From the IMG/VR virus record IMGVR_UViG_3300034375_010007, positions 1 to 64,000 of that record: a stretch of DNA of 64,000 nt. One strand, given 5' to 3'. Origin of the DNA: a virus. This document shows positions 17,824-36,499 of this stretch, piece after piece; positions within the stretch are counted from its first letter, which is position 1, and each line of letters opens with the position of its first letter. Under the pieces are notes generated by a model, which had not been told where the DNA came from, made no database searches, and saw nothing but the letters and a program-made list of their open reading frames with translations. The translations under genes were made by a program, and so were the position numbers.

Positions 17824-17829
17824 GTCTCT

Positions 17830-18357: not shown

Positions 18358-18369
18358 TACCAAACTTAG

Positions 18370-18377: not shown

Positions 18378-18399
18378 TAACATAACAGGAGGACACAGT

Positions 18400-18829: not shown

Positions 18830-18831
18830 TA

Positions 18832-19652: not shown

Positions 19653-19718
19653 CTCAGTTGGTAGAGCACCATTCTTGTAAAGTGGATGTCCACAGTTCGA
19701 ATCTGTGTGCCGGCACCA
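19643..19718 (+). tRNA. tRNA-Thr(TGT)
   Basis: GCCGGTA/TGCCGGC acceptor, loop CTTGTAA, TTCGAAT, encoded CCA. Confidence 0.95.
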
Positions 19719-19737
19719 TAAAACTAAATATTTCCTT

Positions 19738-19813
19738 GGGGATGTAGCTCAGTTGGGAGAGCATCAGTTTTGCATACTGAGGGTCGTAGGTTCGATTCCT
19801 ATCATCTCCACCA
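19738..19813 (+). tRNA. tRNA-Ala(TGC)
   Basis: GGGGATG/CATCTCC with G3:U70, loop TTTGCAT, CCA. Confidence 0.95.
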
Positions 19814-19818
19814 TTTTA

Positions 19819-19895
19819 GGGCGGCTAGCTCAGTTGGTTAGAGCAGTTGTTTTACACGCATCAGGTCGGGAGTTCGAATCTCTCGCCGCCCACCA
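19819..19895 (+). tRNA. tRNA-Val(TAC)
   Basis: GGGCGGC/GCCGCCC, loop TTTACAC, CCA; one U-U mismatch in the anticodon stem. Confidence 0.92.
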
Positions 19896-19899
19896 TAAT

Positions 19900-19975
19900 C
19901 AGGGCGTAGGGCAGGGGATGTCCCGCTGGTTTTGGGAACCAGAACACGTTGGTTCGATTCCAACCGCCCTGACCA
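19900..19975 (+). tRNA. tRNA-Pro(TGG)
   Basis: CAGGGCG/CGCCCTG, CTGGT-TTTGGGA-ACCAG, CCA. Confidence 0.92.
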
Positions 19976-19980
19976 TTTTT

Positions 19981-20071
19981 AGAGAGGTGTCCGAGTGGCC
20001 GAAGGAGCAGCATTGGAAATGCTGTGTAGGTTCAAAGCCTACCGGGGGTTCGAATCCCCCCCTCTCTGCCA
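19981..20071 (+). tRNA. tRNA-Ser(GGA)
   Basis: AGAGAGG/CCTCTCT, CAGCA-TTGGAAA-TGCTG, long variable arm, GCCA end. Confidence 0.95.
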
Positions 20072-24163: not shown

Positions 24164-25414
24164 ATGTCAGACAAGATAAAGATCTTTACCATCAGCGATC
24201 ACCCGCTGTCTCCGAGTGGTGTCGGAACACAAACAAAGTACATTATTGAAGGAATGTTAAAGACTGGTAAGTACCAGTTTGTTTCTTTTGGCGGTGCGAT
24301 TAAGCACCCAAACCACGATCCGCAGAGAACCGAAGAGTGGGGCGAGGATTGGATTATTTGGCCTGTTGATGGTTATGGCAATCAAGATATGGTCCGAGCA
24401 ATGATCCGTCAGCAAAAGCCGGATATTCTTTGGTTTATGACAGATCCACGTTTTTATGAGTGGCTTTGGTCAATTGAAAATGAAATTCGAGCGCATGTTC
24501 CAATGGTTTATTATCATGTTTGGGACAATTATCCATATCCAAGTTTCAATCGTAAGTTTTACCTATCAAACGATCACGTTGCTTGTATTTCAAAGCTAAC
24601 ACATGACATTGTACAGACAGTGGCACCAGAGGTAGAGTCCTCCTATGTTCCCCATGCGGTAAATCCAGATATCTTCAAGCCTCATACTGCTCAAAAGATA
24701 AAGAGTTGGAGAATGTCCAAGAACTTAGATGATAAATTCGTCTGTTTCTGGAACAGTCGCAATGCTAGACGCAAGCAATCGGGCACATTAATTTGGTGGT
24801 TTAAAGAGTTCTTGGACAAGGTCGGTCATGATAACGCATGCCTTATCATGCACACAGACGTAAAGGACCAACATGGACAGGATTTGGAAGCAATTATCCA
24901 TGAATTAGGGCTTACCAATGGAGAAGTTCTTTTCTCAAGAGAGAAGGTCAATGCAGCAGACCTAGCTGGCATGTATAACATGGCTGATCTTACAATTTGT
25001 ATCTCGGATGCAGAAGGTTTTGGACTTTCTACCTTAGAGTCTCTATCTTGCGGCACACCAATTTTGGTAAACATGACCGGAGGTCTTCAAGATCAAGTAA
25101 CGGACGGAGAGAAGTTCTTTGGTATCGGATTACAACCGGCATCAAAAGCAATTATTGGATCACAGCAGGTTCCATACATTTACGAAGATCGTCTAAATAA
25201 GGATGATTTTATTAATGCTTTGGTTGAACTTTATGAGATGACACCAGAAGCTAGAAGAGAATTAGGAATGGCTGGTCGTGCTTGGTCCGAAGATCGCTTT
25301 GGATTTGATAAGTTCATCCAAACATGGGATGATTTATTTACGTCAATTTACGAAGAAAAAGGCTCTTGGGAAGACCGCAAGGGTTACAACTCATACGAAG
25401 TAAAGGTATACTAA
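24164..25414 (+). CDS. Glycosyltransferase family 4
   Basis: SRNARRK, YNMAD, EGFGLSTLESLSCGTP. Confidence 0.9.
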   Translation: MSDKIKIFTISDHPLSPSGVGTQTKYIIEGMLKTGKYQFVSFGGAIKHPNHDPQRTEEWGEDWIIWPVDGYGNQDMVRAMIRQQKPDILWFMTDPRFYEWLWSIENEIRAHVPMVYYHVWDNYPYPSFNRKFYLSNDHVACISKLTHDIVQTVAPEVESSYVPHAVNPDIFKPHTAQKIKSWRMSKNLDDKFVCFWNSRNARRKQSGTLIWWFKEFLDKVGHDNACLIMHTDVKDQHGQDLEAIIHELGLTNGEVLFSREKVNAADLAGMYNMADLTICISDAEGFGLSTLESLSCGTPILVNMTGGLQDQVTDGEKFFGIGLQPASKAIIGSQQVPYIYEDRLNKDDFINALVELYEMTPEARRELGMAGRAWSEDRFGFDKFIQTWDDLFTSIYEEKGSWEDRKGYNSYEVKVY

Positions 25415-26658
25415 TGTTAAAGAAGGTTTTAATCAAAGGTCCAGTGCTATCGCGCTCAGGATATGGCGAGCAAGCTCGGTTTGCTCTCAGGGCGCTGCAG
25501 TCGCGACCGGATCTGTTCGACATTTATATTGTTAATATCCCATGGGGACGGACAGGACAAATCTCAGAGGTAGATGAAGAAGCAAATCTGATTCATGAGA
25601 TTCTCATGAAGACCCAGGCATATGTGCAACAAAAAGGACAATTCGATGTTTCCTTGCAGGTTACGATTCCAAATGAATTTGAGAAGATTGCTCCTATTAA
25701 CATTGGTTACACTGCAGGTATTGAAACAACAAAGGTATCTCCACAATGGATTGCGAAATCTAATGAAACGGTAGACAAGATAATTGTTGTTTCCAATCAT
25801 TCTAAGAAGGTATTTGAGCAGACTAAGTACGACGTTAAAGACCAAGCTGGCTATGAACATAAGGGTTGGGGACTTCAAGTGCCTGTAGAAGCCGTTAACT
25901 ACCCTGTCAGGATGTTTGAGCCGGAAGAACTAAATATTGAATTTAGGACCAACAAGAACTTTCTCACCGTTGCTCAATGGGGACCGAGAAAGAATCTAGA
26001 AAATACGATTAAGTGGTTTGTGGAGGCTTTTGCCGATGATGAAGATGTCGGACTGGTAGTAAAGACTAGTACCGCATCCGATTCTGTAATGGACAGAGAG
26101 GTTACACAGAAGCGCCTAGAAGCTCTTCTAAACGCTTGTGGTCCTCGTAAGTGCTCTGTGTACCTAATTCACGGTGAAGTATCTCCTGGGAACCTAGCGT
26201 GGCTCTATGGGCACCCCACTATGAAGGCAATGATTAACATTGGTCACGGAGAAGGTTACGGACTTCCTTTATTTGAGGCTGCTTATCACGGATTGCCGCT
26301 TATTACAACAGCTTGGTCTGGACAAATGGATTTTATTTGTAAGCCAAATAAGAAAGGCAAGCAGGTTCCAAGAGTCATTAAGGTTGATTATGATATTAAG
26401 GAAGTGCAGAAGCATGCTGTATGGAATGGAGTAATTCAAGCAGACTCTAAATGGGCATATGCCAAGGAAAAGTATTATAAGAGCGCTTTAAAGGATTCTC
26501 TAGAGAAGGAAGGGCACTATCGTAAAGAAGCGTTGGCTCTACAAAAGTACATCATTGATAAATTTACGGATGAAAATATGTATGCTGCTTTTGTCGACAG
26601 CATGTGCACAGGACAAGAGGAAGACAACACCCTCGATGAGGGTGTCTTTATATTATGA
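25414..26658 (+). CDS. Glycosyltransferase family 4
   Basis: SGYG, QWGPRKN, GEGYGLPLFEAA; ATG 25414 coupled to the upstream stop. Confidence 0.9.
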   Translation: MLKKVLIKGPVLSRSGYGEQARFALRALQSRPDLFDIYIVNIPWGRTGQISEVDEEANLIHEILMKTQAYVQQKGQFDVSLQVTIPNEFEKIAPINIGYTAGIETTKVSPQWIAKSNETVDKIIVVSNHSKKVFEQTKYDVKDQAGYEHKGWGLQVPVEAVNYPVRMFEPEELNIEFRTNKNFLTVAQWGPRKNLENTIKWFVEAFADDEDVGLVVKTSTASDSVMDREVTQKRLEALLNACGPRKCSVYLIHGEVSPGNLAWLYGHPTMKAMINIGHGEGYGLPLFEAAYHGLPLITTAWSGQMDFICKPNKKGKQVPRVIKVDYDIKEVQKHAVWNGVIQADSKWAYAKEKYYKSALKDSLEKEGHYRKEALALQKYIIDKFTDENMYAAFVDSMCTGQEEDNTLDEGVFIL

Positions 26659-27932
26659 AAACTGTAGTATTAGTAGGACAACTAACTGATATATCAGGAT
26701 ACGGGCATGGAGCACGTAGCTATTTCAGCAATCTTCTAGATTTGGACAGAAGGGGCCTAATAGAGTTAAAATTAATAAACTTGTCATTTGAATCGGTTAT
26801 TTATAAGGATAAAAAATTAGACAAAGATTATAATGAGAAGTTGATTGCTTCTGTTCTCCCTGATGGCCGTGGCAAGCGTAGTTTTGGAATAGTAGATAAC
26901 AAATTTTTTGATGAAATATCAAATGGTAATAAAAAATATTCTGTTGTTTTTTTTCTTACCAACGATTGGCTTAATACTTTCACCGAAAAAGCATTTCCTG
27001 GGGTGAATTTAGAACCTATTGCCTCTTTTCTAAAAAACGCAGAAGAAATATATCCTTGCGTAGTTTGGGAAACTGATAAGCCACCATCCTCGTGGCTAGC
27101 AGGATATAAACGATATGAAGATAAGATAAGCAAGCTAATTTGTGCATGTGATTGGAACAAGGAACAGTTTTCTAAACACACAAATTTTGAAACAGTCAAA
27201 ATACCGTATACTATTAATGAAAAGTTATTAGTTGATGACGATTTCATTAGTGAACGCCTGTCGGGTTTAGAAAATAAATTTAATTTTGTAACTGTTGGTC
27301 AGTGGGGAAACAGAAAGGGGTTTGATAAGCTTATCAAAGCTTTCCTGCTTGAATTTAAAGATGACAAAGATGTTAACTTGATAATCAAAAGTTATCGTAA
27401 TGCAACCTTTCAGCCAAATGTTAGCGAAAGACAATTCTTCAAAGATGAGATAGAAAAAATTAAAGATCAAGTAAAAATGTATGGACGCCAAATTAAAAGT
27501 GATGCAAAAATAGTTATAATTTCTAGTATATTGAGTGCTGAGCAGATCAACTCTTTATATCATGTAAGTGACTGCTATGTTACTACTACAAGAGGCGAGG
27601 GATTTTGTTATCCAATAGCAGAATATTCTTGGTTTGGCAAACCGATAATATCTCCGTCCAAGGGAGGGCACACTGATCTTCTTCCGGAAGGAAGTATGAT
27701 GATTGATTCATCCTACGAACCAGTTGAAAATCAACCATCTTTATATTCATCAGACATGAATTATGTTGAGTGTTCAATCAATTCAACCAGAAATAAAATG
27801 AGAACCATCTACAATTTAAAAATAAATAACTCTGATGATTATGATAAACTTGGCAAACAGCACCTTAGCCATATAAAACAATATTTAAACCACGAAAGAA
27901 TAACAAGCTTATTTGAAGAAGCTTTACGGTAA
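26655..27932 (+). CDS. Glycosyltransferase family 4
   Basis: SGYG, WETD, QWGNRKG, RGEGFCYPIAE. Confidence 0.88.
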   Translation: MKTVVLVGQLTDISGYGHGARSYFSNLLDLDRRGLIELKLINLSFESVIYKDKKLDKDYNEKLIASVLPDGRGKRSFGIVDNKFFDEISNGNKKYSVVFFLTNDWLNTFTEKAFPGVNLEPIASFLKNAEEIYPCVVWETDKPPSSWLAGYKRYEDKISKLICACDWNKEQFSKHTNFETVKIPYTINEKLLVDDDFISERLSGLENKFNFVTVGQWGNRKGFDKLIKAFLLEFKDDKDVNLIIKSYRNATFQPNVSERQFFKDEIEKIKDQVKMYGRQIKSDAKIVIISSILSAEQINSLYHVSDCYVTTTRGEGFCYPIAEYSWFGKPIISPSKGGHTDLLPEGSMMIDSSYEPVENQPSLYSSDMNYVECSINSTRNKMRTIYNLKINNSDDYDKLGKQHLSHIKQYLNHERITSLFEEALR

Positions 27933-27937
27933 TTGAA

Positions 27938-28915
27938 ATGAAAAAAACTGCAATAATAACTGGGATTACCGGGCAAGATGGGTCTTATTTAGCTGACTTA
28001 TTGCTAAGTAAGGATTACAACGTTGTAGGTACTCTTAGAAGAACAGTAGTTTCTGAGAAAGAAAAGCTGGCCAACTTAAGTAATATAGACGATAATCGTC
28101 TTACTCTTATAGACGTTGATATTACGGATTCCGCTTCCGTATATAGGATGGTCAAAGAGCACCAACCAGATGAGTATTATAATTTAGCTGCCCAATCTCA
28201 TGTCGGCACATCATTTAGAACTCCTGCTTCTACTTTTGATATTAATGCAACAAGCGTTATTTACGCTTTAGAAGCTATTAGACTTGAGAGGCCAGAGTGT
28301 AAATTCTATCAAGCTTCAACATCAGAGATGTTTGGAGATAATGTTACAAACCCTCAAGGGGAAGATACATTCTTTTCTCCGGTTTCTCCATATGCTTGTG
28401 CAAAGCTAGCTGCTCACCATATGACGCAGACATATAGAAAATCTTATGATTTATTTGCCTGCTCTGGAATACTTTTCAATCATGAATCACCTAGAAGAGG
28501 TGAAAATTTCGTTACTAGAAAGATTACCAAGGCAGCTGCAAGAATCAAGCTTGGGTTACAAGACGAGCTAAGACTCGGCAATCTAGAGGCTCTCAGAGAT
28601 TGGGGGCACGCCAAGGACTATGTACGCGGGATGTGGTTGATGCTCCAACAGGATACCCCGGATGATTATATCTTAGCCACAGGCGAAGCTAACTCGGTAG
28701 AACAATTTCTAGAATATGTTTTTGACTATGCGGGGCTAAGCATCGATGATCGAGTTGTGATAGATCCTAAATTCTATCGACCCTGTGAGGTCCCAGAGTT
28801 GCGAGGAGATCCTTCAAAAGCTGAGAGAGTTTTGGGGTGGAATCGAGAATATGACTTTAGATCTTTAGCTATTGAGATGTTTGAAGAAGATTATAGGAGA
28901 GAAGAAAAATTATGA
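27938..28915 (+). CDS. gmd: GDP-mannose 4,6-dehydratase
   Basis: ITGITGQDGSYLA, NLAAQSHV, FYQASTSEMFG, PVSPYACAK, GILFNHESPRRGENFVTRKI, RDWGHAKDYV. Confidence 0.95.
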   Translation: MKKTAIITGITGQDGSYLADLLLSKDYNVVGTLRRTVVSEKEKLANLSNIDDNRLTLIDVDITDSASVYRMVKEHQPDEYYNLAAQSHVGTSFRTPASTFDINATSVIYALEAIRLERPECKFYQASTSEMFGDNVTNPQGEDTFFSPVSPYACAKLAAHHMTQTYRKSYDLFACSGILFNHESPRRGENFVTRKITKAAARIKLGLQDELRLGNLEALRDWGHAKDYVRGMWLMLQQDTPDDYILATGEANSVEQFLEYVFDYAGLSIDDRVVIDPKFYRPCEVPELRGDPSKAERVLGWNREYDFRSLAIEMFEEDYRREEKL

Positions 28916-29568
28916 ATTATTATGGCCAACTGGCAATAGACTTTATATTGCATTCTAGATATTTTAAAAACAAAAAAAATGGATTATTTGTAGAGTGTGG
29001 TGCTTTTAATGGAGTAGCCGATTCGAATACTCTGTTTTTTTATAAAAATCTAAATTGGAGAGGTTTTAATTTTGAGCCAATTCCAAGCATTTATCAGCAA
29101 CTAATCAAAAACAGACCAGAAGACATTAATTTAAACTTAGCTTTATCTAATAAAGACGGCACTTCGGTTTTTACTAGAGTTATAGAACAATCTCGTTTCC
29201 CGCAGTGGGGTGGAGACTTCGCAAATGGTTCACTAAAACATACTAAAAGTCATAAAAAACAAATTGAAAAAAATTTTCCTGGCTCCGAATATATCGATAT
29301 AGAAGTAAAAACCATTTCATTAAAATCTTTTTTTGAACAAAAAATTACAAAAAAACCAGAGTTATTTATTCTAGACATAGAGGGCTATGAGAATATCGTG
29401 CTGGAACAACTAAAAGAAATTCCAGAAAAAAAACATCCAGATGTGTGGTGTATCGAGTGGGGTCATGATGATGTTGAATTAACAAAAAGCATAATGAAAG
29501 AAAATAATTATGTACTAGATTACACAGATTCAATAAATCTTATTTTTACAAAAAGCTTTAATAAATGA
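28912..29568 (+). CDS. FkbM family methyltransferase
   Basis: FVECGAFNG..SNT, WRG..FEP, LDIEGYE. Confidence 0.88.
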   Translation: MNYYGQLAIDFILHSRYFKNKKNGLFVECGAFNGVADSNTLFFYKNLNWRGFNFEPIPSIYQQLIKNRPEDINLNLALSNKDGTSVFTRVIEQSRFPQWGGDFANGSLKHTKSHKKQIEKNFPGSEYIDIEVKTISLKSFFEQKITKKPELFILDIEGYENIVLEQLKEIPEKKHPDVWCIEWGHDDVELTKSIMKENNYVLDYTDSINLIFTKSFNK

Positions 29569-30329
29569 CAAAAAGTGAAATAAAAAAAATAATTAAAACT
29601 ACAAAAAATTTCAAAACCTATCAAAATAAATTGGATTTTTTACATAATAGATTTGAAGGAGAAACTTGTTACATTTTAGGCTGTGGGCCTTCTTTACTAG
29701 AAGCTAACAAGGATAATCTTAAAAAGGAATTACAAAATAATTTGTGTTTATCAATAAAAATTGCTTATTTTTCTTTTTTGGAGTTAGTTGATTTTCATTT
29801 TTTTAATTCTAATAATTTTATGAAATACCCCTACAGTGATGAGACGCTTATTGTTTCATCATCAGATTTTCAATCTGAGCAACAAGCTAAATCAGGTATT
29901 TGGCAGTTTCAAGAAAATGATATAAATTTTACGATTGCTAATAAATCTAAAAATGAAATGCTATCGAGGACAAAGCAAATAGAAAAATGGCTTATTTGCA
30001 ATTCTGGAACGAAAAGACCTTGGGGCCCCGGCATAATATATGAATCTGTATTATTTTTTGCTTACCATTTAGGTTGTAATAAAATAAAAACAATCGGTTG
30101 GGATTATATAGATCCTAATGATAAAAAAATATGTCACTTCTATAAAGAAGACTGGAGAATGTCACAACTTATAAACCCCGCAGCCCAACCGTATAGTGGA
30201 GAGATTAAAGAATCAATCGAACTATCAGGCGATTTTTATTCTTGGCTTTCCCAAAGAGACGTTGAAGTTTCAGCCTATGAATCAGAATTATGTTTTTTAT
30301 CAGATAAAATAAAAAGATATAAGTTATGA
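29565..30329 (+). CDS. Maf/DUF115/CstII-like nucleotide-sugar transferase
   Basis: GETCYILGCGPSL ... AYHLGCNKIKTIGWD. Confidence 0.7.
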   Translation: MTKSEIKKIIKTTKNFKTYQNKLDFLHNRFEGETCYILGCGPSLLEANKDNLKKELQNNLCLSIKIAYFSFLELVDFHFFNSNNFMKYPYSDETLIVSSSDFQSEQQAKSGIWQFQENDINFTIANKSKNEMLSRTKQIEKWLICNSGTKRPWGPGIIYESVLFFAYHLGCNKIKTIGWDYIDPNDKKICHFYKEDWRMSQLINPAAQPYSGEIKESIELSGDFYSWLSQRDVEVSAYESELCFLSDKIKRYKL

Positions 30330-30991
30330 AAATTAATATAATAATTCCCGCTAAAGGAAATAGCGAAAGAATAAAAAACAAAAACCTGTATGAAGTTGGG
30401 GGTAAAAGTCTAATATATCATGCATGCGAGAAAGTTCTTGATTGTAAACATATTGATAACGTGTACTTGGACACAGAAAGTAGAGATGTTATTGCAAGTG
30501 TGACACCACTATTCTCAAAAGGACTAAAACTAATCAAAAGACATCCAAGTCTGGCCACAAACGATATTGGTGCCAATGAGATGATGATTTATGGGCTACA
30601 CAGTATTGAAGAGTGCGATGTGTTATTGCAGACATTTTGTACATCACCATTGCTGACATCAGAAACAATTGATAGGTGCATCGAGACATTTATAAACCAC
30701 GGCATGACTAAGCACGATTCCTTTTTTACAGTTGTTGATGTGCAAGAGTATTTTTGGAAAAATGGTAAAGCATATAATTTTTCAACTAAAGAATTACCAA
30801 ATAGTTTTGAACTTGACATATTGAAAATGGAAACTCATGGACTATACGGCATAACAGTAGACTCTTTGCTAAAAAATAAAACTAGAGTTGGCAACAACCC
30901 AATGATGATTAATATTACAAAAATGGAATCACTTGATATCAATGTAGAAGAAGATTTACAACTAATAGAGAGGATAATGAATGCTTCCTGA
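30326..30991 (+). CDS. neuA: Acylneuraminate cytidylyltransferase (CMP-NulO synthetase)
   Basis: IIPAKGNSERIKNKN, CTSPLL, SLDINVEED. Confidence 0.85.
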   Translation: MKINIIIPAKGNSERIKNKNLYEVGGKSLIYHACEKVLDCKHIDNVYLDTESRDVIASVTPLFSKGLKLIKRHPSLATNDIGANEMMIYGLHSIEECDVLLQTFCTSPLLTSETIDRCIETFINHGMTKHDSFFTVVDVQEYFWKNGKAYNFSTKELPNSFELDILKMETHGLYGITVDSLLKNKTRVGNNPMMINITKMESLDINVEEDLQLIERIMNAS

Positions 30992-31631
30992 CGACATATA
31001 CATGGGAATAGTTTACGATTCTTTAAGAATTATGGGCGAAAAATATAAAAATTTCTATATTAACATTAAACCAAAATGCGGCTATGATTCGATCATACAA
31101 GGAAATTGTTTCACAACTTATGGAGAGGTTGTTGAAGATTGGGATGTAGATTACACCGAAGTAGACAACATACGTCTTGAGATGTATAAGTTAGATGTAT
31201 TTTCGGACAATCCGATTGTGTTCCTTCAAGCTAATGACGATAAAGTAGCCCACAGTGGCGATATAACTTCTTTGATATATAAAAAGCTTGGAGCGAAGGG
31301 GTTTGTAACAGATGGAATAGTTAGGGACATTGATATCATAGATAAACTACAATTTCCCGTATTCTGCAGAGATGAGAACCCAATTGATGCTATTGATTAT
31401 TGGGCCCTAACAAAATTTCAAAATACTATTGAAATTGATGGAGTCGTAATAACACCAAATGATTATTCATTCGCTAGTAGAGATGGTGTAATAATTGTCA
31501 GATCTGATCTGAAAGAAAAGTTTAAGAAAATCGCACTTGAACAGCTAGAGAGAGAGAAAAAAGTACGTTTTTTGATTAATGAGAAAACAAAAACGTTTGA
31601 GCAAATAGTAGAGGAAATGGGAAGATGGTAA
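30981..31631 (+). CDS. RraA-family HMG/CHA-type aldolase
   Basis: AHSGDIT...GAKGFVTDGIVRD..I...FPVF, IDGVVITPND...RDGVIIV. Confidence 0.8.
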   Translation: MLPDDIYMGIVYDSLRIMGEKYKNFYINIKPKCGYDSIIQGNCFTTYGEVVEDWDVDYTEVDNIRLEMYKLDVFSDNPIVFLQANDDKVAHSGDITSLIYKKLGAKGFVTDGIVRDIDIIDKLQFPVFCRDENPIDAIDYWALTKFQNTIEIDGVVITPNDYSFASRDGVIIVRSDLKEKFKKIALEQLEREKKVRFLINEKTKTFEQIVEEMGRW

Positions 31632-32467
31632 TAGAGAAGCCAATCATGGTGGCTGAGCTAAGCATTAACCATCTGGGGATGGTCAAAATAGCTCAAAAAA
31701 TGATAGATGAAGCTATTGGCGGCGGCGCGGATCTTATCAAACTTAAATTCAAGAATGTTGAAAAGTATTATAAAGATGACGGCAAGAAATGGAGAAATTT
31801 TAATTTCAAAACTTATCGAGGATCTCTAGAGCTAAGTAAGGAAGATTTTGGATATTTAGCCGAATACTGTAATTCTAAGGGGATTAAGTGGTTCTGCACA
31901 GTACACGATGAAGAGGGGCTAAATTTTATAAAGACGTTTGATCCTCCATTCTATAAGGTTGCTAGTATGGACGCTGGCAAAACTGAATTAGTCAAAAAGG
32001 TTATGAGTCTGTGCGCATCAGAAGATAAGCCTCTTATTATTAGTTTGGGTGGAAAATCTAATGAATTTGTTACTACATTAGTAGATAAAATCAACGCACA
32101 TAAGCTAAAAGCTTTCTTATTACATACTGTTTCTATTTATCCAACACCAGATGGCAAGTCTAATATATCTTACATTACTAATCTTCGTAAGAAATTTGAA
32201 AGTGATAACATTAAAATTGGATATTCGGGCCATGAAGTGGGGTATGCTCCTTCTATCTTGGCAACCCTTCAAGGAGCTAGAATGATAGAGAGACACTTTA
32301 CGTTGTCTTTAGATTGGAATATACACCATTTGGGGTGTGCTTTGACCCCAGAAAAATATAGAGAAATGAACGAAACAATAGATAAGTTAATTTTAGAAAA
32401 CAATGCTGGATTAACTGAGTTTCACAAAGAGGAATTAGATTTCCTTAAAGATATGAAGTACGCATGA
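31625..32467 (+). CDS. neuB: NeuB-family nonulosonic acid synthase (no C-terminal SAF domain)
   Basis: AELSINHLG, GADLIK, KVAS, HTVSIYP, GYSGHE, IERHFTL. Confidence 0.85.
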   Translation: MVIEKPIMVAELSINHLGMVKIAQKMIDEAIGGGADLIKLKFKNVEKYYKDDGKKWRNFNFKTYRGSLELSKEDFGYLAEYCNSKGIKWFCTVHDEEGLNFIKTFDPPFYKVASMDAGKTELVKKVMSLCASEDKPLIISLGGKSNEFVTTLVDKINAHKLKAFLLHTVSIYPTPDGKSNISYITNLRKKFESDNIKIGYSGHEVGYAPSILATLQGARMIERHFTLSLDWNIHHLGCALTPEKYREMNETIDKLILENNAGLTEFHKEELDFLKDMKYA

Positions 32468-33054
32468 TTTATATTGTTAGACATGGACAAACAGCCTGGA
32501 ATTTACAAGGCAGAAAACAGGGGAGAAAAGATTCTCCCTTAACTTTGAAAGGAGTTGAACAAGCAAAAGAAGTCTCTAAAATTTTGAATGATTCCATCAA
32601 AGATTATACTAAGTTCAAGATAGTAGTATCTCCCCAGTGGAGATGTCAGCAATTTGCTAGTATCATATGCGAACTTGCTGGTATTGATTTTTCTGCATGT
32701 ATATTTGAAGAGAATTTAAGAGAGCATTGTTTTGGATTGTGGGAAGGCAAAACAGAAGAAGAGATAGAGGAAGAATTTCCCGGGTTTTTAGCAAAAAGAT
32801 ATATCCCAGAAAATTACTGGAGTTATGTGGTTCCGATGGGTGAGAGCTATGAGTTGCTGTATTCCAGAATTAAAAAAGTTTTAGATAAGTACGAAGGACA
32901 AAAAGTTGTATATATTTGCCATGAAATGGTGTCAAAAGTTATAAGAGGTAAAACTCTGAACTTATCCCCAGAGCAGATACTTCCTCTTAGGCACCCACAA
33001 GACTGTGTGTATAAAGTAGAGAACAATACATTGACGGAGTTGCGAAGTGTTTGA
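32464..33054 (+). CDS. Histidine phosphatase (phosphoglycerate mutase family)
   Basis: VRHGQTAWN, DSPLT..G, LREH.FG.WEG, GES, ICH. Confidence 0.88.
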   Translation: MIYIVRHGQTAWNLQGRKQGRKDSPLTLKGVEQAKEVSKILNDSIKDYTKFKIVVSPQWRCQQFASIICELAGIDFSACIFEENLREHCFGLWEGKTEEEIEEEFPGFLAKRYIPENYWSYVVPMGESYELLYSRIKKVLDKYEGQKVVYICHEMVSKVIRGKTLNLSPEQILPLRHPQDCVYKVENNTLTELRSV

Positions 33055-33157
33055 AAATTGGACATTTAAAGAACCTACAAGTGAATTTGTAGAACAAAGG
33101 AGTTGCTTAGATATTGGTGCTAGAAAAAACATGTCTGATTTCCCACTAAAATACTAA
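33047..33157 (+). pseudogene. Truncated SAM-methyltransferase remnant (36 aa)
   Basis: GGAG SD, GTG start, MFENWTFKEPTSEFVEQRSCLDIGARKNMSDFPLKY*; LDIGA resembles motif I. Confidence 0.4.
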
Positions 33158-33171
33158 AAAGGAGTAGAAAA

Positions 33172-33369
33172 ATGAAACTATCAAACCAAGCAGTAGGGGC
33201 TCTAATGATGGCCCTTCAAAGATCTCTAATGGAGCAGTCGGACATTGTTCCTGTTCTACAAGGGATGGATTTTCAGGTAAATCCAGAAGATTCGTCACAT
33301 TCGGAGTTGGTTGTCACGAACCCACCAACAATTAATTTTGACAATGTCGAACTAAACGAGGAAGGATAA
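33172..33369 (+). CDS. Hypothetical protein
   Basis: AAGGAG SD; 65 aa. Confidence 0.75.
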   Translation: MKLSNQAVGALMMALQRSLMEQSDIVPVLQGMDFQVNPEDSSHSELVVTNPPTINFDNVELNEEG

Positions 33370-33373
33370 TAAA

Positions 33374-33532
33374 ATGTTTAAGAAGACACAGGAAACTCGA
33401 TACATCACCGAGGGTCAGGCCCGAGAATTAGCAGATGAGCTTGTTCGTACAGCACTTAGAGAGCAAGCTAGAGAGCTTGAGAAGCACCTTGCCGATATAG
33501 ACAAACGACTTAAAACTCTAGAGAGAAGGTAA
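33374..33532 (+). CDS. Small coiled-coil protein (52 aa, not in the ORF track)
   Basis: AAGGA SD; MFKKTQETRYITEGQARELADELVRTALREQARELEKHLADIDKRLKTLERR* fills the gap exactly. Confidence 0.75.
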   Translation: MFKKTQETRYITEGQARELADELVRTALREQARELEKHLADIDKRLKTLERR

Positions 33533-33534
33533 TA

Positions 33535-33783
33535 ATGCCCAGATATGTCTATCGTTGTACGGAATGCGAAGAGCTTTCAACTATCAATCACTCATCCGAT
33601 GAGGTAGAAACAAAGTGCCCTAAGTGCGCCACCGATAGAGGACTAGTGAAATTACTTACCAATTTTACTACGAGAAAAAATGGAACAAAACTTAACAAGG
33701 TTGGTCAAGTAACAGAGCAATTTATAGAAGATTCGCGTCAAGAGTTGGAACAACAAAAAGAGCAACTAAATAAAAACAAATAA
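33535..33783 (+). CDS. FmdB-type zinc ribbon protein
   Basis: MPRYVYRCTECE ... CPKC. Confidence 0.8.
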   Translation: MPRYVYRCTECEELSTINHSSDEVETKCPKCATDRGLVKLLTNFTTRKNGTKLNKVGQVTEQFIEDSRQELEQQKEQLNKNK

Positions 33784-34151
33784 TGTTCATTCATATTGTA
33801 TTAATCATATCCCTTGCAATAAACGTACTTTTGGGTTGGTATATATCAAGGATGTTACAAAAGTTTATATTTATCTCAGACAATATGTCTGATTTGTTTT
33901 TGACCACAAAAGCTTTTCAAGTGTTTGTAAAGGATATGTATAGCATGGATTCTTTTCACGGGGAGCCGATCATCCAAGAATTGGTGCTTCGTATAAGAGA
34001 AGTAAATGAAGAAATGTCTAATTTTAAAGAGATATTTGAATATACAATAGACGCTGAATTGGAACAAGAACTAGAGGAAGCGCTAAATGCCGAGGAAGAA
34101 GAGCAAGAAAAATTATTACTTTACGCAGGCACACGAAGACGCAATAGTTAA
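33783..34151 (+). CDS. Membrane-anchored hypothetical protein
   Basis: N-terminal TM helix. Confidence 0.7.
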   Translation: MFIHIVLIISLAINVLLGWYISRMLQKFIFISDNMSDLFLTTKAFQVFVKDMYSMDSFHGEPIIQELVLRIREVNEEMSNFKEIFEYTIDAELEQELEEALNAEEEEQEKLLLYAGTRRRNS

Positions 34152-34773
34152 GTATGCCCTGACAAATGACAGGGAATTGCGATCTAAGTTATACGAAGAG
34201 TACATACAGCCTGCGTTTGACGATATGGTAGACAAGATAATCTACACTTATCGTTTTACCACACTGCCAAACATTGACTATCTCAGAGCAGATTGTAAGG
34301 TTTGGTTAACGACCATCCTAAACAAATACGATCCGAACAAAGGCTCCAAAGCCTTTTCATATTTCTCGGTTGTAACAAAGAACTGGTTTATCCATAAGGT
34401 AAAGAGAACCAAAAAGCGTCTACAAACAGAAGTCTTTATGGAGGATGTTCTGAATGAGATGGATGAAAACCTAATATCGGAGGATCCCAGTTATTTCGAC
34501 AAAAGATCGGAGATGGAATTTTGGATGTCTCTCAATAATGAGATAGATACTTGGGATTCATTTATGATAAAAGAAAACGAGAAGAAGGTTCTTATGGCTG
34601 TTCGTATTCTTTTAGACTCCGCTGATCAAATAGAAATTTTTAATAAGAAGGCAATCTATCTATATTTGAGAGAAATTACAGGACTTAATACAAAACAGGT
34701 TGTCAATAATCTTAATAAGCTTCGCAAGAGGTACAGGACGTTTAAGACAAAATGGGAAAACAGCGAGATCTAG
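34087..34773 (+). CDS. Phage RNA polymerase sigma factor (gp55-like late sigma)
   Basis: Region-2-like KYDPNKGSKAFSYFSVVTKNWFI; NYYFT N-terminus; sits just before the structural genes. Confidence 0.75.
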   Translation: MPRKKSKKNYYFTQAHEDAIVKYALTNDRELRSKLYEEYIQPAFDDMVDKIIYTYRFTTLPNIDYLRADCKVWLTTILNKYDPNKGSKAFSYFSVVTKNWFIHKVKRTKKRLQTEVFMEDVLNEMDENLISEDPSYFDKRSEMEFWMSLNNEIDTWDSFMIKENEKKVLMAVRILLDSADQIEIFNKKAIYLYLREITGLNTKQVVNNLNKLRKRYRTFKTKWENSEI

Positions 34774-34873
34774 TATTTTTCGCCTTTTTGTGGAATAAAA
34801 ACTATAAAGATTCTACCTACTAATGCTGACAAAGAGGGTATTTAAAGAAAAATGGGAAAACAGCGAGATTTAA
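34735..34873 (+). repeat. Diverged 39-bp direct repeat of the sigma gene 3' end, offset by 100 bp
   Basis: 34735-34773 vs 34835-34873; 21-bp identical core AAAATGGGAAAACAGCGAGAT. Confidence 0.85.
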
Positions 34874-35160
34874 GTTTAGAGCATTACATAGAAGAAACCA
34901 CGACAAACATCAAAGAAGATCGTGCGATGGCCAAGTCTTTACTAATGGATGTAATGGCCGATATGAAAGCCTCTCCCGCCGATAGAAGAGAGATGGGCCC
35001 AATCGCGGCCAAGTATGTAGAAAACCTTCAAAGATCCAATGAGCAGATGGTGAAGCTTGCTGCGATCCTTCAACGCCAAAAGACAGGCCAAGTAGGTCTC
35101 ACAGCCGACGACAAAGAGCAGTTGTTTGATTTGTTGAACGAGAGCAAAGAAGATGGCTAA
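34852..35160 (+). CDS. Helical hypothetical protein
   Basis: 102 aa ORF; LQRSNEQMVKLA. Confidence 0.75.
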   Translation: MGKQRDLSLEHYIEETTTNIKEDRAMAKSLLMDVMADMKASPADRREMGPIAAKYVENLQRSNEQMVKLAAILQRQKTGQVGLTADDKEQLFDLLNESKEDG

Positions 35161-36490
35161 CGAAATAACACCCCAACAGATATTTAGCCAATACGGTATC
35201 CTGAATGATCTTAGACCAGCTGACGGTCTTTCTGGTGATAGAAGATCCTTAACTACAACCGATGCTATATCTACTGTTCTGGAGCAAGCATTTACTCCTG
35301 ATGCTATTGGAAATAAAACGGTTTTCGGTGGTATTGTTTTTGGTACTTATTATGGGGACCAACCAGTAATATCCAATCCGGTGGAAAATTTGGAGTACGT
35401 CTCTAAACAGCTTGCGCTAGCAGATAGTCCAGAATTAACTGGCGAAGCAGTATATTACAAATATAAGGTTTATGTCCATGAAGGTGATCCTAGAGTTCTC
35501 ATAGATATTGATGAGCTTCTAAAAGACAATGCAACCGGGAAGTTGAATCTTCCAGGCATGTCTTTGGCTGATCGAGTTGATTCGTTACCTGACGCGTCGT
35601 TATCGCTTGATGCTAGTGTACCCAACGGTCAGTTGGCTATTTTGCCTGGAACACTGGTTAGTATAATATACGCCGACGAAAAGTTCCAAAAACCTCAAAT
35701 TATAAAAGTAGGACCTAAAATATTTGATATTAATCTTCAAAATTCATCAATAAAGATGGATTTCAAAGATAAAAAATCTATGCTTATGGGTCCTAGGGGT
35801 ACAGTTTCCAAGGATGATCCGGGCATCTTTAGTTGGTCTAATAGAGCTAAACAAGAAACAGCGATTTATATTCCAACAGGCGAACCCATCAATAATGGAG
35901 AGCTAGAGGAAGCCGGTTTGTTGTATACTGATCCAGCCTCTGGTGCTCAATTAATAAAAGATGCTAAAGATGATTGGCTTAAATTAACGGCTGCATATAA
36001 GCGAAAATTTGGCAAACAACTAAAAGGTAGTGGCTATCGAACTTATGATAGTCAAGTTAATGTGCGTATGATTAGGGTTGGTGGCGATGAGGCAGGATGC
36101 CCCGGACCGCATCGTAATGGTATAAAAGGCGAGGGCGCAGGACAGTACAATAAAAATTGTAAATTTGTTGGGTATGCAGCAATTCCTGGCACATCCAATC
36201 ACGGATGGGGATCTGCTGTAGATATAGATAGACCAGCTAGTGGATGGACCGGAGATCAAGCGGGGAACTCACCAGAATTTAAGTGGTTGAATAAATTTGC
36301 CCCCGACAAATTTAACTTTAATTTTGGTGTATCAAACGAACATTGGCACTTGGATTGGATCGGACTTAACAAAGTAGTTAAAGGGGTCTCGGTAAACACT
36401 AAACGTTGGACTCAAGAGGGGCTTGAAGATACACAGGTAACATTTGGGGCAGATCCGCCCGCCACAGCAGGACCTAGTGCGTTATCTTAG
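35153..36490 (+). CDS. Baseplate-associated protein with M15 (VanY-like) peptidase domain
   Basis: SGYRTYDSQ, PGTSNHGWGSAVDI, EHWHL. Confidence 0.8.
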   Translation: MANEITPQQIFSQYGILNDLRPADGLSGDRRSLTTTDAISTVLEQAFTPDAIGNKTVFGGIVFGTYYGDQPVISNPVENLEYVSKQLALADSPELTGEAVYYKYKVYVHEGDPRVLIDIDELLKDNATGKLNLPGMSLADRVDSLPDASLSLDASVPNGQLAILPGTLVSIIYADEKFQKPQIIKVGPKIFDINLQNSSIKMDFKDKKSMLMGPRGTVSKDDPGIFSWSNRAKQETAIYIPTGEPINNGELEEAGLLYTDPASGAQLIKDAKDDWLKLTAAYKRKFGKQLKGSGYRTYDSQVNVRMIRVGGDEAGCPGPHRNGIKGEGAGQYNKNCKFVGYAAIPGTSNHGWGSAVDIDRPASGWTGDQAGNSPEFKWLNKFAPDKFNFNFGVSNEHWHLDWIGLNKVVKGVSVNTKRWTQEGLEDTQVTFGADPPATAGPSALS

Positions 36491-36499
36491 GAGAAAAAA

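What the first reader, a model, noticed from the sequence alone, without database searches (positions are those of the whole stretch)
29565..33054. Non-canonical nonulosonic-acid pathway: NeuB + NeuA + Maf-like transferase + RraA aldolase + histidine phosphatase
Seen: five overlapping, translationally coupled genes. NeuB is short (no SAF domain) and has KLKF where the family usually has KFQ. No NeuC or Pse/Leg precursor genes are present in the window. Known: NeuB condenses PEP with a sugar, NeuA CMP-activates it, and Maf/CstII-type enzymes transfer it; 9-phosphate routes normally use a HAD phosphatase; RraA-family proteins can be pyruvate aldolases. Inference: a self-contained make-activate-transfer route to an unusual ulosonic acid, possibly methylated by the adjacent FkbM, for decorating the virion or host surface.
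Basis: partly seen in the sequence, partly recalled or inferred. Interest (0 to 1): 0.75.

Follow-up and report, generated by a model that had tools for sequence, protein, structure and literature searches.

The report
Phage sugar-acid pathway with RraA-type enzyme
A marine phage carries a compact, widely conserved but never-tested gene set that most likely builds, activates and transfers an unusual acidic surface sugar, using an aldolase-like enzyme that no textbook pathway for such sugars contains.

Summary
Five overlapping same-strand genes encode a Maf/CstII-fold transferase, a cytidylyltransferase, an RraA-like protein with intact aldolase-type residues, a 280-aa NeuB and a histidine phosphatase.

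The genes co-occur elsewhere. NeuBs linked to an RraA gene form one clade (one branch, SH-aLRT 100: 50 linked, 6 undecidable, 0 unlinked, against 51 unlinked). In 30 de-duplicated loci with enough flank:
- RraA-like: 30/30.
- Cytidylyltransferase: 30/30.
- Phosphatase: 16/30.
- Sialyltransferase-like gene within 6 kb: 25/30.

A Bdellovibrionales MAG has the four-gene core in a capsule-type locus.

NeuB residues K41, R57 and H94 track with the phosphatase, which suggests a phosphorylated substrate.

The cytidylyltransferase belongs to a subfamily that is elsewhere fused to RraA-like domains (CroV crov266, jumbo phages). There it sits beside Maf-like and FkbM genes in genomes that carry genuine KDO8P synthase and a KdsB-like enzyme.

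Most likely reading: PEP plus a sugar phosphate gives a ulosonate phosphate, which is dephosphorylated, passes an RraA-type step, is CMP-activated and then transferred. The sugar's identity and the RraA reaction are unknown.

The lack of a SAF domain is not special among phage NeuBs.

It is a new variant of a known kind. The scan had already noted this cassette and the fusions on other DNA.

The parts
24164..25414 (+). GT4 glycosyltransferase (island backbone, 'GT4a')
   Evidence: Pfam Glycos_transf_1 49.2 bits. Homologues at 300-600 bits head the same island in related phage loci that carry other NeuB modules.
25411..26658 (+). GT4-like glycosyltransferase ('GT4b'); ATG at 25411 assumed
   Evidence: Pfam Glycos_transf_1 25.7 bits, just under the 26.4 cut-off. 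Conserved next to GT4a in related loci. The ORF listing gives an upstream TTG at 25366 as an alternative start.
26655..27932 (+). GT4 glycosyltransferase ('GT4c')
   Evidence: Pfam Glycos_transf_1 39.3 bits.
27938..28915 (+). GDP-mannose 4,6-dehydratase
   Evidence: Pfam GDP_Man_Dehyd 402.9 bits. TIGR01472 399.3 bits against a cut-off of 415.
28912..29568 (+). FkbM-family methyltransferase
   Evidence: Pfam Methyltransf_21 69.3 bits. TIGR01444 54.8 bits. Overlaps the next gene by 4 nt.
29565..30329 (+). Maf / CstI-II / GT29-fold (sialyltransferase-like) transferase, MptE-like/DUF115 superfamily
   Evidence: AF2 model pLDDT 93.5, pTM 0.92. VIA Z 12.8 to Maf 5mu5, 11.2 to MptE 8sd5, 10.6 and 10.3 to CstI and CstII, 7.3-9.2 to GT29, then a drop to 4.5. 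Pfam MptE-like 32.6 bits is under the cut-off.
30326..30991 (+). CMP-ulosonic-acid-type cytidylyltransferase of the RraA-associated subfamily
   Evidence: Pfam CTP_transf_3 63.3 bits. Far under the PseF and KdsB cut-offs. 33% identity, 110 bits, E 9e-33 to the N-half of a CTP_transf_3+RraA fusion. Only 19.6 bits to a phage KdsB-like enzyme.
30981..31631 (+). RraA-like (HMG/CHA-aldolase fold) protein with intact catalytic-type residues and an invariant C-terminal G-R-W
   Evidence: Pfam RraA-like 63.9 bits. D94, R115, D116 and E192 align with D102, R123, D124 and E199 of 3noj. They are invariant or nearly so in 39 family members.
31625..32467 (+). NeuB-family PEP-condensing synthase of the RraA-linked clade, no SAF domain
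   Evidence: Pfam NeuB 154.8 bits. TIGR03569 139.5 bits against 399.65, and TIGR03586 126.5 bits against 340.25. Clade split at SH-aLRT 100. Clade-specific residues.
32464..33054 (+). Histidine phosphatase (branch 1), presumed ulosonate-phosphate phosphatase
   Evidence: Pfam His_Phos_1 124.4 bits. R-H-G at residues 6-8. R60, E87 and H153 are at least 95% conserved in 24 cassette homologues.

Best explanation
The five genes are the sugar-acid module of a phage glycosylation island. The core is cytidylyltransferase, RraA-like enzyme, NeuB-type synthase and histidine phosphatase, plus a sialyltransferase-fold transferase.

Proposed order of events:
1. The NeuB-type enzyme condenses PEP with a phosphorylated aldose from central metabolism, giving a 3-deoxy-2-ulosonic acid phosphate.
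2. The histidine phosphatase removes the phosphate. It does the job that HAD phosphatases (KdsC, NANP) do in known routes.
3. The RraA-like enzyme is a metal-dependent enzyme of the pyruvate-enolate type. It acts on the free 2-oxo-3-deoxy-4-hydroxy head group. My best guess is C4 epimerisation by reversible retro-aldol and aldol reaction; dehydration-type chemistry is the alternative.
4. Its dedicated partner cytidylyltransferase makes the CMP-sugar.
5. The Maf/CstII-fold enzyme transfers the sugar onto a glycan that the three GT4 enzymes help to build. That glycan may also carry a 6-deoxyhexose derived from GDP-mannose and an O-methyl group.

Shown: the gene families, their conservation as a unit, clade-specific residues, the transferase fold, and the link to the fusion form.

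Inferred: every substrate, the order of the steps, the RraA reaction and the acceptor.
For: (1) Domains and overlaps.

(2) Conserved unit.
- A tree of 119 distinct NeuBs has one branch (SH-aLRT 100). It splits 56 rows (50 RraA-linked, 6 with too little flank, 0 unlinked) from 63 rows (51 unlinked, 12 undecidable, 0 linked).
- Among 30 de-duplicated clade loci with at least 1.5 kb on both sides: RraA 30/30 (directly upstream of NeuB 28/30), cytidylyltransferase 30/30, phosphatase 16/30, MptE-like or GT29-like gene within 6 kb 25/30.
- Among canonical-like NeuB loci, with duplicates not removed: RraA 3/66 and phosphatase 0/66.

(3) Cellular occurrence.
- A Bdellovibrionales MAG has the same four genes in order. 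They lie between a Bac_transf gene and a Capsule_synth (KpsS/C-type) gene, GT2 and GT4.
- A 62%-identical NeuB is in Vibrio amylolyticus ZSDE26.

(4) Transfer step.
- The transferase fold.
- Alternative neighbours are Glyco_transf_29-like and MptE-like proteins.

(5) Phosphorylated substrate. K41, W56-R57 and H94 occur in 26-27 of 29 phosphatase-linked NeuBs. They occur in 1-4 of 14 RraA-linked NeuBs without a phosphatase, and in 0-2 of 51 unlinked ones.

(6) Altered sugar site. All 43 RraA-linked NeuBs have H234-H235 where 51/51 unlinked ones have (S/T/P)-D.

(7) RraA-like protein is probably catalytic. The residues that bind pyruvate and Mg in HMG/CHA aldolase are conserved (their roles as stated in the passages read).

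(8) RraA and cytidylyltransferase are a functional pair.
- A fusion family exists: 65 cluster representatives at E <= 1e-30, about 40 of them full length.
- The window's cytidylyltransferase matches the fusion's N-half at 110 bits.
- The fusion sits beside MptE-like genes (22/32 loci) and FkbM-family genes (19/32 loci). This is the same order as in the window.

(9) The module pairs with either synthase type.
- Fusion records: KdsA-type 4/5, NeuB 0/5.
- NeuB-cassette records including this one: KdsA-type 0/6.
Against: - No biochemical datum exists for any member.
- Chain length and substrate are unknown.
- The phosphatase is missing from 14 of 30 evaluable clade loci. A phospho-intermediate is therefore not universal.
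- RraA is absent from its usual slot in L090 and L129, where a second cytidylyltransferase sits instead. The NeuB, phosphatase and cytidylyltransferase steps can therefore stand without an adjacent RraA gene.
- In the fusion phage examined, genuine KDO8P synthase and a KdsB-like enzyme lie together 12 kb from the fusion. The RraA step could therefore belong to a side branch rather than lie on the main line.
- A reversible aldolase next to an irreversible synthase would be wasteful unless tightly coupled.
- The only RraA-family enzyme known to act on a 2-keto-3-deoxy sugar acid is degradative.
- The virus records are fragments (8-72% complete), so the absence counts are weak.
- The roles I assign to NeuB positions 41 and 235 rest on my recall of the N. 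meningitidis NeuB structure. No call supports them.
Confidence: 0.55

Rival explanations
1. The cassette makes an ordinary, known sugar acid with non-orthologous parts. The product would be Kdo from arabinose-5-phosphate or KDN from mannose-6-phosphate. The NeuB-type synthase would stand in for KdsA or KDN-9-P synthase, and the histidine phosphatase for the HAD enzyme. The RraA-like protein would be an accessory or regulator that does not change the product.
For: - The same RraA-associated cytidylyltransferase subfamily occurs in genomes with genuine KDO8P synthase and in CroV's predicted Kdo cluster (passages read).
- NeuB-cassette records lack a KdsA-type gene (0/6). That fits functional replacement.
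- The Bdellovibrionales locus has a KpsS/C-type Capsule_synth gene next to the cassette. From my own knowledge, this family includes Kdo transferases.
- The phosphatase-linked basic residues fit any sugar phosphate.
Against: - Gram-negative hosts already make Kdo.
- The fusion phage has its own KdsB-like enzyme as well as the fusion. The RraA-associated activator is therefore unlikely to be just another CMP-Kdo synthetase.
- The window enzyme shares only 19.6 bits with that KdsB-like protein.
- Strict RraA linkage (30/30) and conserved catalytic-type residues argue for a chemical role.
Confidence: 0.2
2. The RraA-like enzyme works before the synthase. It would be a retro-aldolase or decarboxylase that supplies the aldehyde substrate from a host 2-keto-3-deoxy acid, or that recycles pyruvate. 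It would not modify the finished sugar acid.
For: - The aldolase-type residues are conserved.
- The RraA gene lies directly upstream of NeuB in 28/30 loci.
- RraA-family enzymes cleave or decarboxylate 2-oxo acids.
Against: - The Rosetta-stone fusion joins RraA to the cytidylyltransferase, not to a synthase.
- The fusion occurs about 12 kb from the synthase in phages.
- The likely aldehyde products (glyceraldehyde-3-P, arabinose-5-P and the like) are already available in cells; this point is inference.
Confidence: 0.1
3. The RraA-like protein is a non-catalytic subunit. It would cap or regulate the SAF-less NeuB, or chaperone the cytidylyltransferase.
For: - Tight adjacency and overlapping reading frames.
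- E. coli-type RraA is a protein-binding regulator (family knowledge).
- An invariant C-terminal G-R-W could be a docking element.
Against: - Most RraA-unlinked phage NeuBs are equally short (median 293 aa) and manage without RraA.
- The metal and pyruvate-binding residues would not need to stay invariant in a pure scaffold.
- The E. coli-type RraA model scores only 18.3 bits against a cut-off of 241.
Confidence: 0.08
4. The genes are not one glycan pathway. They would be unrelated auxiliary genes, for example an RNase E regulator and a general phosphatase, that merely sit together.
For: The promoter scan gives no operon evidence either way (42 sites found against 40.7 expected).
Against: The same set recurs in order across phage and bacterial loci whose NeuBs are only 30-60% identical to the window's. 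It comes with sialyltransferase-like genes in 25/30 loci.
Confidence: 0.02

Closest known systems
CroV crov265-267 predicted Kdo cluster; crov266 is a cytidylyltransferase fused to a 'demethylmenaquinone methyltransferase' (RraA-like) domain. Source: Chem Rev 2022, PMC9614988, passages read.
   Same: - Pairing of a NeuA-like cytidylyltransferase with an RraA-like domain.
- A PEP-condensing synthase, a phosphatase and a sugar methyltransferase in the same cluster.
- Viral origin.
- None of it validated.
   Different: - CroV uses a KdsA-type synthase, a HAD-type Kdo-8-P phosphatase and an arabinose-5-P isomerase, and the two domains are fused.
- Here the synthase is NeuB-type, the phosphatase is of the histidine type, no isomerase is present, and the cytidylyltransferase and RraA are separate overlapping genes.
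Phosphate-dependent sialic acid and KDN routes: Neu5Ac-9-P or KDN-9-P synthase, a HAD phosphatase and a CMP-synthetase, as in animals and Bacteroides thetaiotaomicron. This comparison comes from my own knowledge, not from a call.
   Same: A NeuB-family synthase presumed to use a sugar phosphate, then dephosphorylation, then CMP activation.
   Different: - The phosphatase family differs (His_Phos_1, not HAD).
- There is an extra RraA-like enzyme.
- The NeuB lacks SAF and scores far under the NeuB and PseI equivalog cut-offs.
- The cytidylyltransferase is of a separate subfamily.
HMG/CHA aldolase LigK/PcmE (PDB 3noj), and FlDet, an RraA-family 2-keto-3-deoxy-hexarate dehydratase/decarboxylase (PMC8563752, passages read).
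   Same: - RraA-like fold family.
- D102, R123, D124 and E199 equivalents are conserved.
- The substrates are 2-oxo-3-deoxy-4-hydroxy acids, which is the head group of every ulosonic acid.
   Different: - Those enzymes are catabolic.
- This one is locked into a biosynthetic CMP-sugar cassette.
- It scores 34.8 bits against the LigK cut-off of 304.5.
- It has its own invariant C-terminal G-R-W.
Maf flagellin glycosyltransferases and CstI/CstII (GT42) sialyltransferases.
   Same: - Fold: Z 12.8 and 10.3-10.6.
- An N-terminal G-x-G-P-S-type motif.
- Genomic coupling to a CMP-ulosonic-acid synthetase.
   Different: - Sequence identity is only 12-15%.
- Pfam MptE-like is under the cut-off.
- At 254 aa the protein has none of Maf's extra domains.
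- Donor and acceptor are unknown.

Membership tests
NeuB family (PF03102), PEP-dependent ulosonic acid synthases | Match to the family model over the TIM-barrel catalytic domain | tested here: met
   154.8 bits against a cut-off of 22.1, residues 26-255. Profile hits to SpsE, PseI and NeuB structures at E 1e-37 to 1e-26.
N-acetylneuraminate synthase (TIGR03569) / pseudaminic acid synthase (TIGR03586) equivalogs | Score above the curated equivalog cut-off | tested here: not met
   139.5 bits against 399.65, and 126.5 bits against 340.25.
Canonical NeuB/PseI/LegI synthases | C-terminal SAF (antifreeze-like) domain | tested here: not met
   The protein is 280 aa and Pfam finds only the NeuB domain. 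However, most RraA-unlinked NeuB ORFs in the fetched loci are also about 290 aa.
Canonical NeuB/PseI/LegI synthases | K-F-Q motif glutamine and the (S/T)-D aspartate of the sugar site (roles recalled, not from a call) | tested here: not met
   K41 and H234-H235 in the window and its clade. Q41 is found in 51/51 and D235 in 51/51 RraA-unlinked NeuBs.
CMP-ulosonic acid synthetases (CTP_transf_3, PF02348) | Match to the family model | tested here: met
   63.3 bits against a cut-off of 22.6.
KdsB / PseF equivalogs | Score above the curated cut-off | tested here: not met
   PseF 51.4 bits against 205.7. kdsB TIGR00466 26.1 bits against 155.2.
RraA-like / HMG-CHA aldolase superfamily (PF03737) | Family model match, plus conservation of the Mg/pyruvate-site residues (D102, R123, D124, E199 of 3noj) | tested here: met
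   63.9 bits against a cut-off of 24.5. D94, R115, D116 and E192 align with these residues. R115, D116 and E192 are invariant and D94 at least 90% conserved in 39 sequences.
LigK/PcmE aldolase and E. coli-type RraA equivalogs | Score above the curated cut-off | tested here: not met
   TIGR02798 34.8 bits against 304.5. TIGR02998 18.3 bits against 241.25.
Histidine phosphatase superfamily, branch 1 (PF00300) | Family model match and the catalytic R-H-G ... R ... E ... H residues | tested here: met
   124.4 bits against a cut-off of 21.7. R-H-G at residues 6-8 of the window protein. R60, E87 and H153 are at least 95% conserved in 24 cassette homologues. No equivalog cut-off is reached: CobC scores 90.5 against 162.9.
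MptE-like/DUF115 (Maf) and GT42/GT29 sialyltransferase-fold enzymes | Sequence model above the gathering score | tested here: inconclusive
   32.6 bits against a cut-off of 34.6, N-terminal 50 residues only. Relatives beside other cassettes reach 44.8 and 35.6 bits.
MptE-like/DUF115 (Maf) and GT42/GT29 sialyltransferase-fold enzymes | Shared three-dimensional fold | tested here: met
   Model pLDDT 93.5. Z 12.8 to Maf (188 residues aligned, rmsd 3.8), 11.2 to MptE, 10.6 and 10.3 to CstI and CstII, 7.3-9.2 to GT29, and the next unrelated hit at 4.5.
MptE-like/DUF115 (Maf) and GT42/GT29 sialyltransferase-fold enzymes | Catalytic base and CMP-binding residues in register with CstII | not tested
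   No residue-level superposition is available from the tools. H191 is invariant in 12 homologues, but its equivalence to the CstII catalytic His was not checked.
Kdo pathway (KdsD, KdsA, KdsC, KdsB) | KdsA-type (DAHP_synth_1) synthase present | tested here: not met
   0 hits in the own 81.5-kb record and in 5 related cassette records. All records are fragments.

The most novel reading that the evidence does not exclude
The RraA-linked NeuB clade, its dedicated cytidylyltransferase subfamily and the RraA-like enzyme together make a sugar acid that has not been described. The RraA-family enzyme would perform a new biosynthetic step on a free ulosonic acid, for example C4 inversion through reversible aldol cleavage, immediately before CMP activation. 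The same RraA/cytidylyltransferase pair would have been recruited at least twice: onto a NeuB-type synthase with a histidine phosphatase in these marine phages and bacteria, and onto the Kdo route in jumbo phages and giant viruses. That would make it a widespread, overlooked way of diversifying acidic surface sugars.
Probability: 0.35. Interest if true: 0.8.

Novelty: new variant of a known kind. Interest (0 to 1): 0.65.

Why it matters
Ulosonic acids (Kdo, sialic, legionaminic and pseudaminic acids) are key surface sugars for recognition by phages and immune systems. Their known biosynthetic routes contain no RraA-type enzyme and no histidine phosphatase.

Here a complete, compact cassette is conserved across many phage and some bacterial loci. 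It has a clade-specific synthase and a dedicated activating enzyme. That points to either a new sugar or a new enzymatic step.

It also gives a first testable context for two things:
- a large group of 'RraA-like' proteins of unknown function;
- the unexplained second domain of CroV crov266.

The cassette is only four or five genes and also occurs in a cultured Vibrio, so the question can be tested directly by expression and mass spectrometry.

For phage biology, the island shows that one phage lineage swaps alternative acidic-sugar modules behind the same pair of glycosyltransferases.

Tried and rejected
- Complex prediction, NeuB alignment plus RraA-like alignment: the verdict was 'no answer' (score 0.00 in two runs, controls not run). 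I draw nothing from it about binding.
Neighbourhoods therefore came from the search for related loci, the genome search and the fetch from genomes. The Vibrio amylolyticus locus could not be fetched.
- INPHARED searches: blastn with 33100-41000 gave no match. tblastn with NeuB gave only 3 distant hits at 27-31% identity. The phage has no close annotated relative there.
- PHROGs: only the phosphatase matched, to phrog_12933 of unknown function.
- Literature searches that found no paper: RraA + NeuB + cytidylyltransferase; 'RraA-like' + 'sialic acid synthase'; 'demethylmenaquinone methyltransferase' + 'N-acetylneuraminate synthase'; RraA + nonulosonic.
  - 'crov266' found only the Chem Rev review.
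  - The phage/NeuB search listing and the passages of the SugarBase preprint held nothing on this cassette.
  - Subscription journals and supplements were not searchable.
- A sequence search of the Maf-like protein and its profile against the PDB gave only insignificant hits. The fold search was needed.
- The ESM Atlas search for the RraA-like protein returned only generic RraA and HMG-aldolase clusters.
- The promoter and terminator scan gave no usable operon boundary.
- A single-protein scan for the fusion in viral contigs found nothing. A 21-row alignment was too diverse to scan with. A 9-row alignment worked.
- Considered and rejected: that the missing SAF domain is the special feature, and that RraA replaces SAF. 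Equally short NeuBs without RraA are the majority in the fetched loci, mostly viral.
- Considered and rejected: that the window's FkbM is part of the conserved NeuB cassette (0 of 162 loci).

Full report
**What is there.** The window is part of an 81.5-kb viral record, linear and estimated 49% complete. It has no nucleotide relative among annotated phages.

From 24164 to 33054, ten + strand genes follow one another with overlaps or gaps of a few bases:
- three GT4-type glycosyltransferases;
- a GDP-mannose 4,6-dehydratase;
- an FkbM methyltransferase;
- the five genes of the finding.

- CTP_transf_3, 63.3 bits;
- RraA-like, 63.9 bits;
- NeuB, 154.8 bits, 280 aa, no SAF hit;
- His_Phos_1, 124.4 bits;
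- a sub-threshold MptE-like hit, 32.6 against 34.6 bits.

None of the five reaches an equivalog cut-off (NeuB, PseI, KdsB, PseF, LigK, RraA, CobC). The overlaps are 4, 11, 7 and 4 nt.

The whole record has no NeuC-type epimerase, no DegT aminotransferase and no PseB/LegB-type dehydratase. It also has no KdsA-type synthase.

**The transferase.** An AlphaFold2 model built on 12 homologues is confident: pLDDT 93.5, pTM 0.92.

Foldseek's significant hits are archaeal MptE/HPPK, the Maf flagellin glycosyltransferase, CstI, CstII and GT29 sialyltransferases.

VIA-align gives these Z-scores:
- 12.8 for Maf (188 residues aligned, rmsd 3.8);
- 11.2 for MptE;
- 10.6 and 10.3 for CstI and CstII;
- 7.3-9.2 for GT29;
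- 10.2 for one unrelated-looking entry, SteA;
- then a fall to 4.5.

The 'Maf/CstII-like' reading holds at the level of fold. Catalytic residues were not checked.

**Do the genes co-occur?** The 280-aa NeuB has 360 database relatives, most of them about 280 aa. They include one from Vibrio amylolyticus ZSDE26 (62% identity) and one from a Bdellovibrionales MAG.

I fetched 162 loci around NeuB relatives. I then searched their six-frame ORFs with the window's ten proteins.

Results for loci with a full-length NeuB and at least 1.5 kb on both sides, duplicates not removed:

| NeuB score against the window's NeuB | RraA-like | Cytidylyltransferase | Phosphatase |
|---|---|---|---|
| at least 135 bits | 35 of 35 | 35 of 35 | not pooled for this class |
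| under 135 bits | 3 of 66 | 32 of 66 | 0 of 66 |

A maximum-likelihood tree of 119 distinct NeuBs has one branch with SH-aLRT 100.
- On one side are 56 rows: 50 RraA-linked, 6 with too little flank, none unlinked.
- On the other side are 63 rows: 51 unlinked, 12 undecidable, none linked.

After removing identical NeuBs, the clade has 55 non-window members. Thirty of them have adequate flanks:
- RraA-like 30/30, directly upstream of NeuB in 28;
- cytidylyltransferase 30/30;
- phosphatase 16/30;
- an MptE-like or GT29-like gene within 6 kb 25/30 (18/20 with 5-kb flanks).

The two exceptions with 5-kb flanks are L125 and the Bdellovibrionales locus. In that locus the four genes sit in the same order between a Bac_transf gene and a KpsS/C-type Capsule_synth gene.

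Counter-examples: in L090 and L129 a second CTP_transf_3 gene occupies the RraA slot.

**What distinguishes this NeuB.** All 43 evaluable RraA-linked NeuBs share K43, Y64-R65, T92, G143 and H234-H235. Of the 51 unlinked ones, 50 have R43, 43 K65, 48 S92 and 46 M143, and all 51 have (S/T/P)234-D235.

A second set of residues tracks with the phosphatase: K41 (the 'KLK for KFQ' change), W56-R57 and H94.
- 26-27 of 29 phosphatase-linked NeuBs have them.
- 1-4 of 14 RraA-linked NeuBs without a phosphatase have them.
- 0-2 of 51 unlinked NeuBs have them.

Extra basic residues that appear together with a phosphatase gene are what a phosphorylated substrate would predict. This is inference. My assignment of positions 41 and 235 to the sugar site is recalled from the N. 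meningitidis NeuB structure and comes from no call.

The lack of SAF is not distinctive. The unlinked NeuB ORFs have a median length of 293 aa.

**The RraA-like protein.** In 39 cassette homologues R115, D116 and E192 are invariant and D94 is nearly so. So is a C-terminal G-R-W.

These four residues align with D102, R123, D124 and E199 of the solved HMG/CHA aldolase 3noj. Passages of the HLB5 preprint state that pyruvate contacts Mg2+ and Arg123, and that Mg2+ contacts Asp124.

The protein is therefore probably an active enzyme of the pyruvate-enolate type, not an RNase E regulator (TIGR02998 scores 18.3 against 241).

One characterised family member, FlDet, dehydrates and decarboxylates a 2-keto-3-deoxy-hexarate (passages of PMC8563752). 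The family does act on 2-oxo-3-deoxy sugar acids, and aldol cleavage is not its only chemistry.

**The link to the cytidylyltransferase.** A search for longer forms found a CTP_transf_3+RraA fusion.

Earlier notes of this scan pointed to such fusions and to CroV crov266. I checked that lead as follows.
- The Chem Rev review says crov266 joins a cytidylyltransferase, phylogenetically nearer to CMP-NeuAc synthetases, to a 'demethylmenaquinone methyltransferase' domain. As I recall it, that is the old label for this family. The gene lies in an unvalidated Kdo cluster with a KdoPS-methyltransferase fusion and a KdoPase-isomerase fusion.
- The fusion family has 65 cluster representatives at E <= 1e-30, about 40 of them full length.
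- The window's cytidylyltransferase matches the fusion's N-half over its whole length: 33% identity, 110 bits.
- It shares only 19.6 bits with a KdsB-like enzyme from a fusion-bearing phage.
- In 32 viral fusion loci (duplicates not removed), an MptE-like gene is present in 22 and an FkbM-family gene in 19. Pfam was checked on one representative. In the loci mapped the order is FkbM, MptE-like, cytidylyltransferase-RraA, the same as in the window.
- None of the 32 loci had a NeuB or phosphatase hit.
- Of five fusion-bearing records, four carry a KdsA-type gene and none a NeuB.
- In one of them the gene passes the KDO8P-synthase equivalog cut-off (317.7 against 314). It lies next to a KdsB-like gene, about 12 kb from the fusion.
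- The six NeuB-cassette records, this one included, have no KdsA-type gene.
- All these records are fragments, so the complementary pattern is suggestive only.

**Reading.** The RraA/cytidylyltransferase pair, often with a Maf-like transferase and a methyltransferase, is a module that acts on the common head group of 3-deoxy-2-ulosonic acids. It is fed by a Kdo route in jumbo phages and CroV. Here it is fed by a dedicated NeuB-type synthase with a histidine phosphatase.

The RraA link holds across NeuB subclades with and without the phosphatase, that is, across presumably different substrates. This fits an enzyme that works on the invariant C1-C4 part of the sugar.

I rank the candidate reactions as follows:
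1. Reversible aldol cleavage and re-addition, which inverts C4. This is my first guess.
2. Dehydration-type chemistry.

I put only about one chance in four on the first.

The product could be eight or nine carbons long, so 'nonulosonic' is not established. The acceptor (virion, host envelope or capsule) was not testable.

**Context.** Homologues of the first two GT4 genes (300-600 bits) head the same island in related phage loci. Those loci carry either this cassette (L003, L092, L095, L103, L133) or canonical-like NeuB genes with other partners (L018, L023, L025, L029-L035, L064, L069). The lineage therefore swaps sugar-acid modules behind a constant pair of transferases.

Methyltransferases of other families, a sulfotransferase, a GT10-like enzyme and a B12-radical-SAM enzyme accompany the cassette in other loci.

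**Novelty and limits.** Four text searches combining RraA terms with NeuB or sialic-acid terms found no paper. Only the CroV annotation touches the RraA/cytidylyltransferase pairing. Subscription journals and supplements could not be searched.

The scan itself had noted the same four-gene cassette on another genome and the fusions on several others.

I class the finding as a new variant of a known kind: a CMP-ulosonic-acid pathway. It has a real chance of hiding a new sugar or a new enzymatic step. Everything beyond gene content, conservation, residue patterns and fold is inference.

Noticed in passing
L003:13789-14979 (related phage, IMG/VR record; NeuB 91% identical to the window's): A RuBisCO large-chain-like protein (396 aa, Pfam RuBisCO_large 116.6 bits) follows an NTP_transferase gene and two genes with no Pfam hit. 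They lie directly downstream of the same cassette. The window lacks these genes. A RuBisCO-like enolase-type enzyme in a phage sugar island is unusual.
   Followed up: no
L029-L035, L023-L025, L064, L069, L018 (viral contigs): Related phages have close homologues of the window's first two GT4 genes. Behind them sit canonical-like NeuB genes (two copies in L023, L029, L030, L033-L035 and L069) plus, in most, a cytidylyltransferase and, in some, an MptE-like gene, instead of the RraA cassette. The island is modular.
   Followed up: partly
L090:998-3805 and L129:2253-4139 (metagenome contigs): Two close relatives (NeuB 84% and 75% identical) have a second CTP_transf_3 gene where the RraA-like gene normally sits. 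NeuB follows in both, and the phosphatase follows in L090; L129 ends inside NeuB. It is the only clear loss of RraA from the cassette.
   Followed up: partly
L197:5484-6891 (record G001, 256 kb jumbo-phage-like contig): A genuine KDO8P synthase (TIGR01362 317.7 bits, above the cut-off) lies next to a KdsB-like cytidylyltransferase. They are about 12 kb from a cytidylyltransferase-RraA fusion that sits among other sugar genes (GDP-mannose dehydratase, cupin/mannose-6-phosphate-isomerase-type); MptE-like and FkbM genes flank the fusion in related loci. This phage therefore has two CMP-activating enzymes.
   Followed up: partly
L013:3662-7327 (viral contig): In a distant cassette variant (RraA-NeuB-cytidylyltransferase, no phosphatase), the upstream genes are a B12-binding radical-SAM enzyme (535 aa), a SPASM-domain protein and a GT29-like transferase. 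This hints at C-methylation or other radical chemistry on the sugar.
   Followed up: no
window 30981-31631, and fusion family alignments A4/A5: The stand-alone RraA-like proteins all end in G-R-W (39 of 39). The fusion family ends in an invariant G-x-F (21 of 21). A conserved aromatic C-terminus may reach a neighbouring subunit's active site, as the C-terminal tail does in HMG/CHA aldolase.
   Followed up: no
window 17445-20071: A tmRNA gene (tag ANDANYGLALAA) is followed by five tRNA genes (Thr, Ala, Val, Pro, Ser).
   Followed up: no
L008:8214-8957; L014:8860-9991; L017:9971-10555; L011:9626-10546: Other cassette loci carry a sulfotransferase, pairs of Methyltransf_24/TylF-type methyltransferases, or a GT10 (fucosyltransferase-like) gene. 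The sugar acid or its glycan is decorated differently in different lineages.
   Followed up: no
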